This document shows positions 12,400 to 64,000 of a stretch of DNA of 64,000 nucleotides, one piece after another. Each line of letters begins with the position of its first letter. Positions within the stretch are counted from its first letter, which is position 1. The DNA lies in contig OX597814.1 in the NCBI GenBank assembly GCA_951406725.2, positions 195,486,001 through 195,550,000 on the forward strand, in the 5' to 3' direction. Both the position numbers and the translations under genes were made by a program. The DNA comes from Octopus vulgaris (lineage: Eukaryota). The notes beneath the pieces were generated by a model that was given only the letters and a program-made list of their open reading frames with translations, ran no database searches and was not told the DNA's origin.

Positions 12400-13811
12400 T
12401 TGCGGCCAAAATGATCAGAACGGTTGAAAAAATAACAAAATAATCAAAAATGACAGAGAATACTGGAATTATTTAATATTTAGTGTGAAGCCCTTTAGCT
12501 TCAATCACACTCTGACATCTTCGACTGCATGAGGAAATTAAATTTTCAATTTCTTGCTGGGTGATCTTATTCCATTCTTCCTGAAGGGCATTCCATAATT
12601 GCTCAGTTGTTTTAGGATTTCTGGCTTTCGAACGTTCTCCTAGAATATTCCACACATTTTCAATAGGATTGAGATCTGGGCTTTGAGCTGGCCAATCCAT
12701 AACAATAACCTTTTCAGCCTTGAGAAAGTTCATGACCACCTTAGCCTTGTGACATGGGGCATTGTTCTGCATGAATATGGGTGGTCGCTTAGTTGAATTT
12801 CTCAGCACAGGCAAGACATGATCTTTTACAAGTTGTTTATAAACTCCTGCATTTAACTTTCCATGTAATCGCACCAAAGGGCCCACACCATCTCCAGATA
12901 TCATTCCCCAAACCATGACACTTCCTCCACCGAATTTAACACTAGTCTTAAGGCATTTAGGCAACAATTTTTCACCTACTTTTCTAAGAACGTACCTTTT
13001 CCCATCTGAGTCAAATAGCATAAGCTTAGATTCATCACTGAAATGCACCGTTTGCCATTTTTCTTGAGACCACATCACATGTTCGACACTTTTTATTCTT
13101 GAAGCTGATTAGTGGCTTCACTGCAGGTGCTCTTGCTTGTAGGTCATGTTCAACTTAACGACGAGACACAGTTTTTCGAGATAAAGTTTTCTTCAATACA
13201 ATACTCATTTTCCGAGTAACAGCAGCAGCAGTTTTAAATCTGTCCTTTTTAACCAACTTTACCATAGCACGATCTTCTCTCTTGGTCGTTTTTCTTGGCC
13301 TACCTGTAAACATTCATGCTTCACACGAACCACAATCATCGTAAACCTTAAGAATACCGTGAACAACACTTTTTGACTTGTTAACAATCTTTGCAATAGA
13401 TCCAATACTTAAATTATCCTTCCTTCGAAGCTTAATAATCTGCTGACAAATTGGTAACGGAGTAAGTGGCATTATATTAACAAAGTACACTGCAAATATT
13501 CTTACTAATGTTTAGTAAACGAACCGTCACGTAAACAAATTCAAAACATTAGAGTTCGCCGGTTAAATATACTAAAACACGGAGTAAAAGCAACCGTTCT
13601 GATCATTTTGGCCGCCATGGGTTTTGCAGTAAATCCCTAAATCATCCATAACTTTTGTATTATACTCTAAAATTACACCAAAATCTCAGGCAATAACAAA
13701 TAATATTGTATTTATTGTCTGTGAAAATTATAGAATATAAAACAACTTTGATAAAAAATGATATCTACTTTTCTGACGAAAACAATGCCGTTCTGAACAT
13801 TTTGGCCGCAA

Positions 13812-22994: not shown

Positions 22995-23680
22995 AGGCCC
23001 GTATGTGATGCTGAAGTAGAACGATTTGAAACCGAACGCTGGAGACTGCATGAAGAGAAGCGGAGACGTCACTATCAATACTCTAAGGATGATATCCGGG
23101 GTCGCTTTCAGTGCCCTAACTGCTACAGAATCTGTATATCTCATATCAGTCTTGTCAGTTACATCTGCTACCTATTTCTTTACTACCCATAAGGGGCTAA
23201 ACACAGAGAGGACAAACAAGGACAGAAAAACGGATTAAATCGATTATATCGACCCCAGTGCGTAACTGGTACTTAATTTATCGACCCCGAAAGGATGAAA
23301 GGCAAAGTCGACCTCGGCGGAATTTGAACTCACAACGTAACGGCAGACGAAATACTTATTTCTTTACTACTCACAGGGGTCTAAACACAGAGAGGACAAA
23401 CAAGGACAGAAAAACGGATTAAGTCGATTATATCGACCCCAGTGCGTAACTGGTACTTAATTTATCGACCCCGAAAGGATGAAAGGCAAGGTCGACCTTG
23501 GTGGAATTTTAACTCAGAACGTAAGGGCGGACGAAATACGGCTACGCATTTCGCCCGGCGTGCTAACGTTTGTACCATCTCACCGCCCTCAGTCACATCT
23601 GCTACCATGAATGACAATGTGCCAGAAAGGGAGAAACATGGATGTTGTTGATCGACGCTGTCGTTACCTTTGATGGGGCC
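22995..23680 (+). mobile_element. RTE-like LINE 3' end (C-terminal zinc knuckle), split by a SINE multimer
   Basis: FETERWRLHEEKRRR..FQCPNCYRICISHISLVS.I..H resembles the RTE ORF2 end (CxxC..SRIGLxSHxRxH); second copy at 38390-38620 (-). Confidence 0.65.
23173..23589 (-). mobile_element. Tandem family A SINE dimer with a single TSD
   Basis: Two units; 17-bp TSD CAGT(T/C)ACATCTGCTACC at 23156-23172 and 23590-23606. Confidence 0.9.
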
Positions 23681-41121: not shown

Positions 41122-41152
<31 letters not shown>

Positions 41153-41170
41153 TGTATGTATGTATGTATG

Positions 41171-41303
41171 AAAATCTTTGGCGATTTTTTTTCTGCGTCT
41201 TCCCTTCCTTGGACCTTTCCTTTTTCTGTGATTCTGACGAAGAGCTCCGCTCGAAACGTTAAATCCTTCTTTCTTTCCTTTTCCTCAGCTACCAATAACA
41301 CTG
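41171..41303 (+). mobile_element. Short hammerhead-bearing repeat, family E1
   Basis: GAUU-CUGACGA-A-GAGC-UCC-GCUC-GAAAC-GUUA-AAUC at 41230-41265. Confidence 0.65.
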
Positions 41304-41327
41304 TCGATAGATTTCACTGAATATATA

Positions 41328-41644
41328 TATATGTTTGCGAAGGCTTGGCAGGCACCTCAGCTAGCAGGACTTACTACCCTAGACTGATGACGAGCAAGAC
41401 TCAGAAACATGTCATGTCTCTGGATGCAGTCCTAGCTGGTGGGGGTGCTTGTCTCCCCTTCGCAAATATAAGGACACAGGAAATGTATCAAAGCCGGCAG
41501 AAAGCGTCGATGCTTCCTAGGGCTAAATAGCGGTGGTGTGATTCCCTTTACGGGACTGTCACGTTGAGTTGACAGTATACAGCCACTCTATCGCTACACC
41601 ACCGCTCATATCTCTCTGAGACATTTAGAAATTTAATATTTCTA

Positions 41645-41648
<4 letters not shown>
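41328..41648 (+). mobile_element. Retrozyme-like element: rod-shaped RNA with an apical hammerhead, in (TA)n
   Basis: Nested helices TTTGCGAAGG/CCTTCGCAAA, GCAGGCACC/GGTGCTTGT, CAGCTAG/CTAGCTG and AGGACT/AGTCCT enclose the hammerhead; second hairpin AGCGGTGGTGT/ACACCACCGCT. Confidence 0.65.
41379..41423 (+). ncRNA. Type I hammerhead ribozyme, intact core
   Basis: CUAGA-CUGAUGA-C-GAG-CAAGA-CUC-A-GAAACAU-GUC-AUGU-C-UCUGG; predicted cleavage after C41418. Confidence 0.8.
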
Positions 41649-41712
<64 letters not shown>

Positions 41713-41961: not shown

Positions 41962-42056
41962 ATATATGTAGGTCCCGGGTTGAGTCGGGGTTAACCACAG
42001 TAAATAAGGTACTCAATACATAGCAGAGTAAATTAATTTATTTTATAGAAGGAGTT

Positions 42057-42144
42057 TACAGGACTAGAACTGTTTCATTCAAAAGAAATCATCAGGAAGC
42101 GCTTCCTGATGATTTCTTTTGAATGAAACAGTTCTAGTCCTGTA
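42057..42144. repeat. 88-bp perfect palindrome; each arm has a hammerhead-like core
   Basis: Axis at 42100/42101; arm reads CUGAUGA-U-UUC-UUUU-GAA-U-GAAACAG..CUGU-A. Confidence 0.9.
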
Positions 42145-42188
42145 TCCTTCTATATATATATATCAATATATATATATATGTATGTATT

Positions 42189-48683: not shown

Positions 48684-49270
48684 GGCAGTCAGCTGGCAGA
48701 AACGTTAGCACGCCGGGCGAAATGCTTAGCAGTATTTCGTCTGCCGTTACGTTCTGAGTTCAAATTCCGCCGAGGTCGACTTTGCCTTTCATCCTTTCGA
48801 GGTCGATAAATTAAGTAACCAGTTACACACTGGGGTCAATATAATCGACTTAAAAACTTTGTCTGTCCTTGTTTGTTCTCTCTGTGTTTAGCCCCTTGTG
48901 GGTAGTAAAGAAATAGGTATTTCGTCTGCCGCTACGTTCTGAGTTCAAATTCTGCCGAGGTCGATTTTGTCTTTCATCCTTTCGGGGTCGATTAAATAAG
49001 TACCAGTTATGCACTGGGGTCGATATAATCGACTTAATCCATTTGTCTGCCCTTGTTTGTCCTCTCTGTGTTTAGCCCTTTGTGGGTAGTAAAGAAATAG
49101 GTATTTCTCTCGTCTTTACGTTCTGAGTTCAAATTCCGCCGAGGTCGACTTTGCCTTTCATCCTGTCGGGTTCGATTAATTAAGTACCACTTACGCACTG
49201 GGGTCGATATAATCGACTTAATCCCTTCCTCCAAAATTGAAGCCTTATGTTTCCAGTAGAAAGGATTATT
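48684..49270 (+). mobile_element. Tandem family A SINE trimer with a single TSD
   Basis: Head plus three core units; TTGTGTCTAGTGGA duplicated on both sides. Confidence 0.9.
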
Positions 49271-52509: not shown

Positions 52510-52921
52510 CCTATTTCTTTACACAAGGGGCTAAACACAGAGGGGACAAACAAGGACAGACAAACGGATTAAGTCGATTATATCGACCCCAGTGCGTAAC
52601 TGCTACTTATTTAATCGACCCTGAAAGGATGACAGGCAAAGTCGACCTCGGCGGAATTTGAACTCAGAACGTAGCGGCTGACGAAATACCTATTTCTTTA
52701 CTACCCACAAGGGGCTAAACACAGAGAGGACAAACAAGGACAGACAAACGGATTGAGTCGATTATATCGATCCCAGTGCGTAAATGGTATTTATTTAATC
52801 GACCCCGAAAGGATGAAAGGCAAAGTCGACCTCGGCGGATTTTGAACTCAGAACGTAACGGCAGACGAAATACGGCTACGCATTTCGCCCGGCGTGCTAA
52901 CGTTTCTGTCAGCTCACCGCC
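52510..52921 (-). mobile_element. Tandem family A SINE dimer with a single TSD
   Basis: TSD TGATCACATAGTC(G/A)TACCT on both sides. Confidence 0.9.
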
Positions 52922-56244: not shown

Positions 56245-56741
56245 CATGGTCTGATCAATAAGTATCCGGACAGCTGCCATAGTAACGAAGTTAAAGCACA
56301 TAGAGTAAAGCCGCTTGGTACAGGTTGACCTTAAACTCTACTGTGCATGCTCACTAAGTTTTAACGTTCTAGCTCACTTCTGCCATTTACAGCAGTGCTT
56401 TGAAAGAAGGTGTGTAGCGTGTGATCGTCGCATTGACCATGACAGAGAATCTGCATCAAATGTTGCCAAAAGCTTGGCGATACCTGCTCAGAGGCCTACA
56501 CAAAGTTCTCAAAAAGTTTTCTTCGTTCTCGACACAAACAAGATCTTGCGCAACTGGAACCCGAGAGTCTTTTTGTTCAGCTGAAAGCACTTTTGACATA
56601 AACTTGCCAGACACGCGTCTCACACCCAAATCTTCAGTGATGATGGACTGAACTGAACTGTAACTAATCTGCATATCCTCTGATAACTCACGGATGGTGT
56701 TTCGGCAGTTTTCCATCACAGCTGCACATGCATCTGTGATT
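56245..56741. mobile_element. Mariner remnant with an internal inversion
   Basis: Plus strand: end TA-CATGGTCTGATCAATAAG and RICIKCCQKLGDTCSEAY; minus strand 56510-56740: TIRELSEDMQISYSSVQSIITEDLGVRRVSGKFMSKVLSAEQK. Confidence 0.8.
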
Positions 56742-56759
56742 AAAAGATGACAAAACAAT

Positions 56760-58640
56760 AAAATCAAAGAGGCTAATAAAGGGATTGAAGTTGTCTTAAT
56801 GGACACGGTATATCATATAACTCTAGTAATATCCATATTAGAAGATATAACATATTATGAAAAGGCCTAACACTACAGTCAGCAGAAAATTATGAGACAC
56901 CTAATATCCATGTTAAACATATACAGAGAAGGACTCACCGACAAAGAATATGACTATATGACGAATTTCAAAAGTAAAACCAGTCAATTCTACGGTATTC
57001 CCAAGATACACAAAACTGAGAAATTAAGTAGGATAGCCACAGACATAATAATCAAAGTCCATACTCCTAATGACTTCAAGTTGAGAACTATCATAGCAGG
57101 TCCCACATGCGAAACCCACTCCCTCAGTAACTTTTTAGATACCCTCTTAAAACCATTCCTCAAGCATGTCAAAAGCTACATAAGAGACGACCTGGATATG
57201 CTCAATCATCTTCCTGAAACAATAAACAAAAACACCCTACTAGTATCCTTCGATGTAGTCAAACTCTATTCCAATATCCCCCACAACCTAGGAATAGAGA
57301 CAATTCAGTTCTGGCTAGAGAATCACGCCAACGAACTCCCACATCGCATCAAAAAAGAATTCGTGATAGAAGGGCTAAAATTTATCTCGGAGAATAACTA
57401 CTTCGTCTTCAAAGACAACTTCTATCGACAAAAATCGTTGACTGCGATGGGTTGGAGAATGGCCCCCTCCTTTGCTAACCTAGTCATGGGATATCTAGAA
57501 ATTAGTCTTTATCGTAAGATTCTAGAAAAATACGACAGCCAATTCTTCCTCTACATAGAAAATAACTGGAAGAGATACCTGGATGACTGTTTCATTCTTT
57601 GGCATGAAAGTATAGAGAGACTTAAAGAATTTCAAGCACTTATAAATGGACTTGACGTAAACATTCAATTCACGATGGAATATAGCCATCAACATCTTCC
57701 CTTCCTCGACATCCTCATTAAGAAATCTAACAACGTAATAGAAACAGATATATTCTATAAGCCCACGGGTTCCAAGCAATATCTACCATTCAATTCATAC
57801 CATCCCAGACACACCAGAATGAATATCTCCTTCAACCTAGCAAAAAGGATATGTACTACAGTTTCTAATGCAAGCACCAGGGACACACGACTACATGAAT
57901 TAAAGGATATACCCATCACCAGGAACTACTTACCTTCATTAATTGACTTATGCTTTCAACGTGCCCTACAACTCAACGTCCACGAACTCAGGCATCTCAA
58001 ATTAAAGAAGGATTCACAACCAAAAGCCCTACCATACATCTTCACACACAACCCTCTTAACAATAAAGCCTTCGACACCATCCTTCAAAACATTCCCCTG
58101 CTAAACAAAGGACCACAGAATGAATTTAATCCTCCAAACACACACTATCATAAAAAGTCAGAGACAGCCCAAATCTATGAAAACCTCCTAACACAAGTCC
58201 AAATACGCTCAACAACAACACTGAAGGCATCAGTAAAAAAATGCGGAAGACCCAACTGTGGGATATGCATCAGTTTAATTGAGGGATCAGAGTTCTCCTT
58301 CGAACAGGGACAACGTTTCATAGTGAAAATTAGCTTCACATGTGCGTCGGAGAACCTGATATACGCACTAACCTGCTCTGGGTGTCAAGAGCAATATATT
58401 GACCAAACAAAACAGTATGCGTCAAAGGATCGCTCTGCACAGATCCCAGATCAAAATAATAAAAAAAAAGACAGAAAAATAGCCTTCAGCCAACACATCG
58501 ACGTTTGCACCAGAAGTAAAAATCCAAGCTTCAGAATTTTACCCCTCTATCAATTCAGGGACGATACAACCTTTCGCCTACGAATTAGTAAATAGTCTCT
58601 CTTTATCACTAAATACAGACCTCTTTTGGACGCATCTACA
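56760..58640 (+). mobile_element. Penelope-like retroelement (Neptune-type), 5'-truncated
   Basis: IKEANKG (DKG motif), RT core, Cys linker CGRPNCGIC, GIY-YIG-like LIYALTCSGCQEQYIDQT. Confidence 0.9.
56892..58595 (+). pseudogene. PLE reverse transcriptase-GIY-YIG endonuclease ORF (567 aa open, probably inactive)
   Basis: FYGIPKIHK, LRTIIAG, SFDVVKLYSNI, TAMG..APSFANLVMG, RYLDDCF, LPFLDI; in-frame stop at 56868, YIG changed to YID, apparent compensating frameshifts around 58110-58190. Confidence 0.85.
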
Positions 58641-61610: not shown

Positions 61611-61840
61611 TTTTTTTTATAGTATATATGTATGTGTGTGTATGAGTGAGGGTGTGTGCGAACTTGTTGGTGGATTTCTTAAAAGATGTACAACTATGGA
61701 AGGCATTGCATAAATGGATCTTATTACAGGTGACCTTTATGTGTTTGTATGTTTGTATGTATGTATGCTTGTATGTGTGTGTGTATGTAAGTATGCATTT
61801 ATATAGAGTAGGGGTACGTATGTATATGTGATTCATATAT

Positions 61841-62256
61841 ATTTCTTTATTGCCTACAAGGGGATAAACATAGAGGGGACAAACAAGGACAGACAAACGG
61901 ATTAAGTCGATTATATCGACCCCAGTGCGTAACTGGTACTTTATTTATCGACCCCGAAAGGATGAAAGGCAAAGTCGACCTCGGCGGAATTTGAACTCAG
62001 AACGTAACGACATACGAAATACCTATTTCTTTACTACCCACAAGGGGCTAAACACAAAGAGGACAAACAAGGACAGACAAACGGATTAAGTCGATTATAT
62101 CGACCCCAGTGCGTAACTGGTACTTTATTTATCGACCCCGAAAGGATGAAAGGCAAAGTCGACCTCGGCGGAATTTGAACTCAGAACGTAACGACAGACG
62201 AAATACAGCTAAGCATTTCGCCCGGCGCGCTAACGTGTCTGCCAGCTCGCCGCCTT
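61841..62256 (-). mobile_element. Tandem family A SINE dimer with a single TSD
   Basis: TATATGTGATT(C/T)ATATA on both sides. Confidence 0.9.
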
Positions 62257-63121: not shown

Positions 63122-63294
63122 ATATATAACATAAGGGACTAAAGCCATCTGAATATGGCTAGGGACAGGGCAGGGTGGTGGGGGTGTTACTGTTGCATTT
63201 AGCCCCAGGCGAACATCGACGTCGCTAGATAGGCTTGACACCGTCACGGTGACCTTTAACCTGCAAAGGGAGATAATTCCCCGATGAAGCGGAA

Positions 63295-63346
63295 ACCACA
63301 CACGGACCATGGTTTCAAGGTGTATTGCCTATCGTCAACGTGTGGT
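63295..63346 (-). ncRNA. Type I hammerhead ribozyme (C3U core variant)
   Basis: CACACG-UUGACGA-U-AGG-CAAUACA-CCU-U-GAAAC-CAUG-GUC-CGUGUG; predicted cleavage between 63305 and 63304. Confidence 0.75.
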
Positions 63347-63911
63347 AGGCCTCCGCTTCCTCGACGAAATCTCACTCTGCAGGTTATTCATATATAGATT
63401 TTCAAGCAAAATACATTTGCTGATTTCGAAAATCTGTTCGACAGCAATAATAATTCTCTAAAAGAGATATAGACAGTAACTGCTCGATAACATAAGGGAC
63501 TAAAGCCATCTGAATATGGCTAGGGACAGGGCAGGGTGGTGGGGGTGTTACTGTTGCATTTAGCCCCAGGCGGACATCGACGTCGCTAGATAGGCTTGAC
63601 ACCTTCACGGTGTCCTTTAACCTGCAAAGGGAGATAATTCCCCGATGAAGCGGAAACCACAAGCCTATCTAGCGACGTCGATGTTCGCCTGGGGCTAAAT
63701 GCAACAGTAACACCCCCACCACCCTGCCCTGTCCCTAGCCATATTCAGATGGCTTTAGTCCCTTATGTTATCGAGCAGTTACTGTCTATATCTCTTTTAG
63801 AAAATTATTATTGCTGTCGAACAGATTTTCGAAATCAGCAAATGTATTTTGCTTGAAAATCTATATATGAATAACCTGCAGAGTGAGATTTCGTCGAGGA
63901 AGCGGAGGCCT

Positions 63912-63963
63912 ACCACACGTTGACGATAGGCAATACACCTTGAAACCATGGTCCGTGTGTGGT
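63912..63963 (+). ncRNA. Type I hammerhead ribozyme (identical copy)
   Basis: Same motif; predicted cleavage after C63953. Confidence 0.75.
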
Positions 63964-64000
63964 TTCCGCTTCATCGGGGAATTATCTCCCTTTGCAGGTT

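What the first reader, a model, noticed from the sequence alone, without database searches (positions are those of the whole stretch)
41328..41648. Second, sequence-divergent rod-plus-hammerhead element with an intact catalytic core
Seen: a relatively GC-rich ~300-bp island between (TA)n tracts. Four nested helices lead to a canonical hammerhead (CUGAUGA, GAAA, GUC site at 41416-41418, stem I CUAGA/UCUGG), followed by a second long hairpin (AGCGGUGGUGU/ACACCACCGCU). Size and layout match the 63-kb monomer despite little primary similarity. Inference: a roughly single-monomer insertion of a second retrozyme subfamily.
Basis: partly seen in the sequence, partly recalled or inferred. Interest (0 to 1): 0.8.

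Follow-up and report, generated by a model that had tools for sequence, protein, structure and literature searches.

The report
Penelope-copied hammerhead retrozyme, truncated copy
This is one slightly shortened copy of an abundant 354-base jumping repeat with a conserved predicted self-cutting RNA motif, and the ends of its copies suggest that a Penelope-type retrotransposon enzyme writes it into the genome, probably from an RNA ring: a new family of a known kind of mobile element.

Summary
The element spans 41307-41645: 0.96 of a ~354-bp unit with at least 1,806 copies in this genome. Across 68 copies the type I hammerhead and its rod covary (0 of 500 shuffles), and stem III stays palindromic through four length variants, as dimer-acting hammerheads need. 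The core is not fully canonical: C.A, never G-C, closes the base of stem II. Copies carry the Penelope-like (PLE) insertion footprint: 142 of 163 arms end at two fixed sites about 57 nt apart; 30 of 38 head-to-head insertions have one of each; 23 of 104 have target duplications, mostly 11-14 bp. Arms run through the cleavage site and the unit junction, which fits a circular or multimeric template. Weak hints point to a U1-snRNA-type promoter, which this copy lacks; with one hammerhead it is likely a dead end. The 63-kb family is a younger relative (shared 80-nt block). Cleavage, expression and the partner PLE were not shown. New member of the known non-LTR retrozymes; this scan already noted the same footprint for sister families here and in another genome.

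The parts
41307..41645 (+). Whole insertion: 5'-truncated copy, u17-u355 of the ~354-bp retrozyme unit (0.96 unit)
   Evidence: 89% to reference unit L014:1814-2168
41307..41333 (+). Remains of the unit's spacer, with internal (TA)n; the putative snRNA-type proximal promoter core (u9-u17) lies just 5' of the truncation point and is missing here
41334..41466 (+). Rod of nested helices that extends hammerhead stem I
   Evidence: 89% of cells paired, 177 both-side changes
41370..41423 (+). Type I hammerhead: internal-loop CUAC 5' of stem I, stem I, core CUGAUGA, C.A mismatch, 3-bp stem II with CAAGA loop, GAAA, stem III palindrome with a central U
41418..41419 (+). Predicted self-cleavage site (after GUC)
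   Evidence: hammerhead consensus; cleavage not tested
41449..41527 (+). Block shared with the 63-kb family; begins with a motif like one 190-198 nt upstream of the U1 snRNA proximal element; candidate distal promoter element and/or PLE-protein binding site
   Evidence: (3,723 exact hits, both families)
41529..41606 (+). Second long branched hairpin, holding the inner copying start site in an AC-rich stretch
41589..41591 (+). Inner fixed 3' end of family copies (u297-u299): inferred first reverse-transcription start
   Evidence: 59 of 163 arms end at u288-304
41592..41645 (+). PLE-type 'tail' with two short hairpins; its end (u353-355) is the inferred second reverse-transcription start, used by this copy
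   Evidence: 83 of 163 arms end at u345-355; present at one end only in 30 of 38 head-to-head insertions
41646..41711 (.). (TA)n target microsatellite at the 3' end; no target duplication discernible for this copy

Best explanation
This is a 5'-truncated, probably inactive copy of a non-coding ~354-bp tandem-forming repeat family whose RNA is predicted to cut itself at a type I hammerhead, to close into a ring, and to be copied into AT-rich DNA by the reverse transcriptase and endonuclease of a Penelope-like element. Shown: unit size, copy number, tandem and head-to-head organisation, covariation, two fixed 3' ends, one-sided tail, target duplications, 5' truncation. Inferred steps: (1) tandem copies are transcribed, possibly from an internal U1-snRNA-type promoter (weak evidence); (2) two hammerheads in a multimer pair through the palindromic stem III and release a monomer; (3) a host ligase circularises it (from PMC7229834, by analogy); (4) a PLE protein, probably Neptune-type, cuts both target strands about 12-13 bp apart and primes from two internal sites 57 nt apart, running round the template for 0.2 to 4 turns; (5) this copy arose from the outer site and stopped at u17. 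With one hammerhead and no proximal promoter core it would not make a monomer ring itself.
For: Multi-copy: 65 matches among 40 scored of 2,556 candidates, best 30 at 88-92%; exact motif counts 179, 137, 555, 1,806, reversed controls 0. Unit closes on itself: 39 of 163 arms span the u355-u1 join. Selection on the ribozyme: core intact in 57 of 68; stem III a perfect palindrome in 58 of 68, in four lengths/sequences, plus 2 with a central U; 177 both-side changes against 65 +/- 13, 0 of 500 shuffles, 5 of 6 stem I pairs covary. PLE footprint: 142 of 163 arms end in two windows; 30 of 38 two-armed insertions pair an inner with an outer end, 1 inner/inner, 1 outer/outer, 6 outer/other; duplications of 8 bp or more in 23 of 104 against 11 of 1,027 mismatched flank pairs. 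PMC11167929 shows in vitro that a PLE cuts both strands of AT-rich DNA and starts at two internal sites that bound the tail. The young 63-kb family shows the same pattern with a ~45-nt tail in (TA)n. Template longer than a cut monomer: of 74 arms anchored on the 3' part, 33 cross the cleavage site, 2 stop near it, 39 are shorter. Arms of one insertion are more alike (93%) than arms of different insertions (87%). Intact PLE ORFs of 781 and 784 aa with a CX4CXXC motif exist in the genome.
Against: No cleavage, ring or transcript was shown. No partner PLE: the two intact families sampled share no significant sequence with the unit and the tail seen for them is about 35 nt. Stem II is closed by C.A (52 of 68) or U-A (14), never G-C, which may slow cleavage; in PMC11167929 the hammerhead was dispensable for insertion in vitro. 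The alignment is biased to intact cores because some loci were fetched with an exact core pattern, and related copies can beat the shuffle control without structure. With looser alignment scoring only 27 of 44 inverted insertions were inner/outer, 5 outer/outer, 2 inner/inner (several of these are loci that one search scored inner/outer, extended through microsatellite). The promoter matrix test was not significant (p 0.09-0.53). Copies are old (80% mean pairwise identity in the rod).
Confidence: 0.72

Rival explanations
1. Same family and same PLE enzyme, but the template is an uncut linear multimeric transcript of tandem arrays; no ring is needed and the hammerhead plays little part in mobility.
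For: A multimer also lets arms cross the cleavage site and junction. PLE hammerhead mutants inserted normally in vitro (PMC11167929). Non-canonical base of stem II. Only 1 of 9 Xenopus dimers cleaved in vitro (10.64898/2026.07.22.740005).
Against: Core, stem I, stem II and the stem III palindrome are kept through compensatory change. No pile-up of 5' ends at the predicted transcription start (4 of 102 at u63-72), which a capped linear template might give. Most insertions are about one unit or less, so long multimeric sources are scarce.
Confidence: 0.18
2. The copies are dead stumps of the terminal repeat of an autonomous Penelope-like element, not an independent non-coding replicon.
For: Tail, inversions, duplications and (TA)n targets are all PLE traits (PMC8557442 passages); other scan notes reached this verdict for look-alikes in other genomes. 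Only a few PLE families of many were sampled.
Against: Upstream of the unit lies its own tail, not an ORF: 39 of 163 arms span the join; 1 of 175 retrozyme loci has a PLE ORF match within 1.5 kb, not contiguous. The hammerhead is the extended form, unlike the minimal ones of the PLEs here.
Confidence: 0.06
3. A DNA-level element (Helitron-like rolling circle, or satellite spread by recombination); the 3' hairpins and CTAA end are Helitron-like.
For: Outer end reads CTAA after two hairpins; tandem units occur.
Against: Target duplications of 11-14 bp, heavy 5' truncation, head-to-head arms and two alternative 3' ends fit reverse transcription, not Helitron insertion (recalled: no duplication, fixed 5' end).
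Confidence: 0.03

Closest known systems
Metazoan non-LTR retrozymes (coral, mussel 350-390 bp, axolotl 330/350 bp; PMC7229834, results and discussion read; vertebrate survey 10.64898/2026.07.22.740005, parts 1-3 of 5 read)
   Same: Non-coding 354-bp unit, type I hammerhead, tandem copies, GC under 50%, strong self-pairing, long target duplications, no LTR, PLEs in the same genome. Axolotl HHR_Amex2 also has a mismatch (U.U) at the base of stem II.
   Different: Mostly dispersed partial monomers and head-to-head pairs rather than long arrays; C.A at the base of stem II; no sequence link to a PLE terminal repeat found, unlike 24 of 57 Xenopus families that match TEs (21 of the 22 matched TEs are PLEs); the two fixed ends and one-sided tail are not described in the sections read.
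Endonuclease-positive Penelope-like elements (Neptune/Poseidon; PMC11167929 main text read, PMC8557442 and PMC4209133 passages)
   Same: 5' truncation, adjacent inverted copy, tail at one end, two internal copying starts in an AC-rich stem-loop downstream of the hammerhead, AT-rich/(TA)n targets, palindromic stem III.
   Different: No ORF; unit closes on itself; tail about 57 nt rather than 30-40; extended rather than minimal hammerhead.
Newt satellite 2 (snRNA-type promoter, cited in a passage of PMC2220036; dimeric hammerhead, passage of PMC6155905)
   Same: ~330-350-bp hammerhead repeat; possible internal snRNA-type promoter; palindromic stem III.
   Different: Promoter here only suggested by motif position, not significant by matrix test; no sequence comparison made.

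Membership tests
Non-LTR retrozyme | Type I hammerhead core in each unit | tested here: met
   Core intact in 57 of 68 copies; C.A at base of stem II
Non-LTR retrozyme | Non-coding unit of 150-450 bp in tandem copies | tested here: met
   354-355 bp; arrays up to about 4 units; no ORF of 110 aa or more over it
Non-LTR retrozyme | Dispersed copies with target duplications longer than 4 bp, no LTR | tested here: met
   23 of 104 insertions, mostly 11-14 bp, control 11 of 1,027
Non-LTR retrozyme | Stable self-paired circular fold | tested here: met
   Circular fold of reference unit z -8.4; prediction only
Non-LTR retrozyme | Self-cleavage of the RNA | not testable with these tools
   Needs in vitro transcription
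Non-LTR retrozyme | Expression as linear and circular monomers | not testable with these tools
   Only assembled contigs of runs guessed to be RNA were available
Active retrozyme locus (two consecutive hammerhead units, criterion of 10.64898/2026.07.22.740005) | At least two units with a hammerhead at the locus | tested here: not met
   Window copy is 0.96 unit with one hammerhead; other loci such as L014 meet it
Canonical hammerhead | G10.1-C11.1 pair next to the core | tested here: not met
   0 of 68; C.A 52, U-A 14, U.U 1, G.A 1; the conserved G-C lies one step out
PLE-mobilised insertion | Two fixed 3' ends bounding a one-sided tail, inverted 5'-truncated copy | tested here: met
   142 of 163 arms; 30 of 38 two-armed insertions
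PLE-mobilised insertion | Sequence shared with the terminal repeat of an autonomous PLE | tested here: inconclusive
   None with the families sampled; thousands of candidates not examined
Autonomous PLE or its terminal-repeat stump | RT and GIY-YIG ORF upstream of the repeat | tested here: not met
   1 of 175 loci with a nearby, non-contiguous ORF match
snRNA-type promoter (newt satellite 2-like) | Proximal and distal elements matching host U1/U2 promoters | tested here: inconclusive
   9 of 9 match to the U1 proximal core at a conserved distance in three families, but matrix p 0.09-0.53

The most novel reading that the evidence does not exclude
These repeats are a retrozyme superfamily that has assembled three borrowed modules in 354 bases: a U1-snRNA-type promoter whose distal element doubles as one arm of the RNA rod, a deliberately weakened, dimer-dependent hammerhead that never has G-C at the base of stem II, and twin Penelope priming sites; each head-to-head insertion records one RNA ring copied twice, once into each strand of the target. 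That would be direct genomic evidence for PLE-driven copying of circular RNA, with no ancestry from a PLE terminal repeat required.
Probability: 0.35. Interest if true: 0.62.

Novelty: new member of a known kind. Interest (0 to 1): 0.4.

Why it matters
That PLEs mobilise animal retrozymes is proposed from co-occurrence and repeat similarity (PMC7229834; 10.64898/2026.07.22.740005, which says the mechanism is open). This family adds insertion-level evidence matching the in vitro PLE mechanism (two internal starts, tail, both strands cut) and names two exact start sites that can be tested with purified enzyme. Thousands of copies also give a natural covariation set for a hammerhead without the usual G-C pair. 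The single copy in the window is itself ordinary and likely dead; the scan has already noted the same footprint for sister families, so the gain is one more family, not a new principle.

Tried and rejected
Rfam: no family at gathering scores over the window, no hammerhead family at E up to 10 over 41150-41700. Expression: no RNA holder listed; contigs of runs guessed to be RNA lie on the family but cannot show level, strand, ends or circularity, and none of the listed pieces bridged this locus's own 5' junction; a deep contig in run X14 holds only the 3' part inside other sequence. Partner search: C-terminal PLE protein query and PF01541 gave mainly two young families with no significant similarity to the unit. 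Chimera with the PLE fragment directly upstream: it abuts the element in 1 of 104 insertions (this one), so chance or nested insertion is enough. Fold-back origin of the inverted arms: arm lengths are not correlated (rho 0.16, p 0.43, n 27; 63-kb family rho 0.26, p 0.42, n 12, though its median length difference was smaller than by permutation, p 0.01), so not favoured but not excluded. Pile-up of 5' ends at the cleavage site: an apparent peak at u128 was, on reading the junctions, mostly a mapping error for joins about 14 nt further 3'; one arm starts at the site. Pile-up at the predicted transcription start: none. Promoter matrix: not significant (the script stopped with an error after printing these results, the rest was rerun). 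One search placed the cut at the wrong GUC for the window copy; corrected. One row of the alignment had wrong coordinates and was ignored. Alignment A1 used 68 of 71 extracted segments (dropped: one reverse-rod artefact, two with insertions). Literature: searches for retrozyme/hammerhead with octopus or cephalopod and retrozyme with tail, target duplication and Penelope listed no paper describing this family or a tail in retrozymes; the supplement of PMC7229834 could not be read and bioRxiv supplements are closed, so a listing there, or in Repbase/Dfam, is not excluded.

Full report
Observation. The 321-nt stretch folds at -121.4 kcal/mol, z -6.9, better than all 100 shuffles. Rfam gave no hammerhead match. 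The window lies in a 2.8-Gb animal genome; a cephalopod is likely from its repeats (recalled) and from other readers' notes, but I did not test this.

The family. A DNA search of the own genome found 2,556 candidates; 40 were scored, giving 65 matches, the 29 best others 88-92% identical. Tandem loci define a 354-355-bp unit; the window copy covers u17-u355, i.e. 41307-41645, at 89%. Exact motif counts, all with reversed controls of 0: 179 (hammerhead), 137 (3' hairpin), 555 (3' end), 1,806 (family-specific block) and 3,723 for a block shared with the 63-kb family. These are lower bounds. Several subfamilies share the 3' half and differ in the rod. Contigs from runs of three other organism labels lie on the element (2,209, 1,585 and 15 contigs), so it is not private to this assembly.

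The ribozyme. In 68 aligned copies (of 71 extracted; some loci were fetched with an exact core pattern, which favours intact cores) the core is intact in 57; the stem III segment is a perfect palindrome in 58, in four forms of 6, 6, 8 and 10 nt, and in 2 more, including this copy, it has one extra central U. On the 45-pair structure 89% of cells pair and 177 show changes on both sides, against 65 +/- 13 in shuffles (0 of 500); slid controls pair 25-48%; 5 of 6 stem I pairs and the middle stem II pair covary (relatedness can inflate this control, and pairs with a both-side change were 18 against 14, 29 of 500). Short palindromic stem III is the mark of hammerheads that act as dimers (PMC4209133 passages). 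Loop II begins CAA in 64 of 68 and CUAC precedes stem I in 60 of 68, which I read as the loop-loop contact of extended type I hammerheads (inference; PMC6155905 passages, describe such contacts). The position next to the core is C.A in 52, U-A in 14, never G-C; the 63-kb family has U.U there, as axolotl HHR_Amex2 does (PMC7229834). The window copy is predicted to reach the active fold less easily (penalty 7.9 kcal/mol against a median of 4.7 for the commonest form; 39th of 51), because the extra U lets the segment pair with the core.

How it inserts. Of 163 arms in the sampled loci, 83 end at u345-355, 59 at u288-304 and 21 elsewhere; in sets not anchored on an end the split is similar. Among 104 distinct insertions 38 are head-to-head; 30 have one inner and one outer end, 1 two inner, 1 two outer, 6 an outer and an irregular end; 23 of 104 have a non-repetitive target duplication of 8-15 bp, mostly 11-14, against 11 of 1,027 mismatched flank pairs. 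Looser scoring gave 27 of 44. This is the PLE pattern of an inverted 5'-truncated copy with a tail at one end (PMC8557442 passages), and PMC11167929 (main text read) shows that the tail is the stretch between two internal reverse-transcription starts in an AC-rich stem-loop downstream of the hammerhead, with both strands of AT-rich DNA cut. Here the inner end lies in an AC-rich stretch of the second hairpin. The 63-kb family (361 bp, best copies 96-100% alike) shows the same design with a tail of about 45 nt, in (TA)n.

The template. 39 of 163 arms run across the unit junction, and of 74 arms anchored on the 3' part 33 cross the cleavage site while 2 stop near it, so the template is not a cut linear monomer; a ring or an uncut multimer both fit. 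No pile-up of 5' ends was found at the cleavage site or at the predicted start. The two arms of an insertion are more alike than arms of different insertions (93% against 87%) and their lengths are not correlated, which fits two priming events on one RNA or on two RNAs of one source.

The partner. The genome holds intact PLE ORFs of 784 and 781 aa with a CX4CXXC motif before the nuclease (Neptune/Nematis type by PMC8557442), minimal hammerheads and (TA)n targets; a related broken ORF with an RT domain lies at 56871-58595. None shares significant sequence with the unit, and only 1 of 175 retrozyme loci has a PLE ORF match nearby. So the unit is not a stump of these PLEs, and the partner is unidentified.

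The promoter. A lead from other scan notes was tested. 23 of 24 U1 and U2 loci have ATCAGT at -57 to -61. The unit has a 9-of-9 match to the U1 form at u9-17, 84 nt before the core; the 63-kb family and a third family have the motif 85 and 83 nt before the core. A second U1 upstream motif, 190-198 nt before the proximal one, is matched 15 of 15 by the 63-kb unit at 213 nt and partly by this family at 204-207 nt, at the start of the shared block. A matrix built from 7 distinct promoter sites did not reach significance (p 0.09-0.53) and ranked u9 first in none of the four units of this family, so this stays a hint. Newt satellite 2 is reported to use an snRNA promoter (passage of PMC2220036). 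The window copy starts at u17 and lacks the motif.

Comparison and verdict. It works like, and meets every testable feature of, the metazoan non-LTR retrozymes (PMC7229834, parts 2-4 of 6 read; 10.64898/2026.07.22.740005, parts 1-3 of 5 read); cleavage and circular RNA could not be tested. My searches listed no paper on this family or on a PLE tail in retrozymes, but supplements were not readable. The scan has noted the same footprint for sister families in this genome and in another; those notes are not independent evidence. New member of a known kind; interest 0.4.

Noticed in passing
window 41171-41306 +: Fragment of a very abundant PLE-type terminal repeat with a minimal hammerhead (core at 41234, bulged A, tiny palindromic stem III) directly abutting the 5' end of the retrozyme copy; adjacent in 1 of 104 insertions only.
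   Followed up: yes
window 63126-64000 and beyond: Young 361-bp sister retrozyme as a head-to-head insertion in (TA)n; hammerhead core begins with U instead of C; arrays of 8 or more units occur elsewhere (G000:C1:31009375-31013592).
   Followed up: partly
window 56871-58595 +: 574-aa open frame of a degenerate Neptune-type PLE (RT, CX4CXXC, GIY-YIG-like end); close young families with intact 784- and 781-aa ORFs, some in 4.4-kb tandems (L238).
   Followed up: partly
L142:2845-3184: Third retrozyme family, 70% like the 63-kb unit, with G.U at the base of stem II and another palindromic stem III.
   Followed up: partly
L078, L046, L036, L056, L109: Five head-to-head joins fall at the same self-complementary CUAG stretch of the rod (about u141), as if two cDNAs annealed through the rod's own symmetry.
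   Followed up: no
runs X1, X4, X6: One hammerhead-region variant contig recurs at depth 30-53 in three runs guessed to be RNA from three studies, while one of its marker indels is at low depth in the DNA-like run; perhaps an expressed source copy or a copy inside an expressed gene.
   Followed up: no
window 41968-42150: Repeat with an internal inverted arm inserted in (TA)n, also seen beside L015; probably another PLE-type end.
   Followed up: no
window 23169-23539, 48732-49224, 52522-52873, 61840-62206: 184-bp tandem units of a common SINE-like repeat, four times in the window.
   Followed up: no
window 12473-13108 - and 56456-56812 -: Open frames that look like Tc1/mariner transposase fragments (by eye, not scanned).
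   Followed up: no
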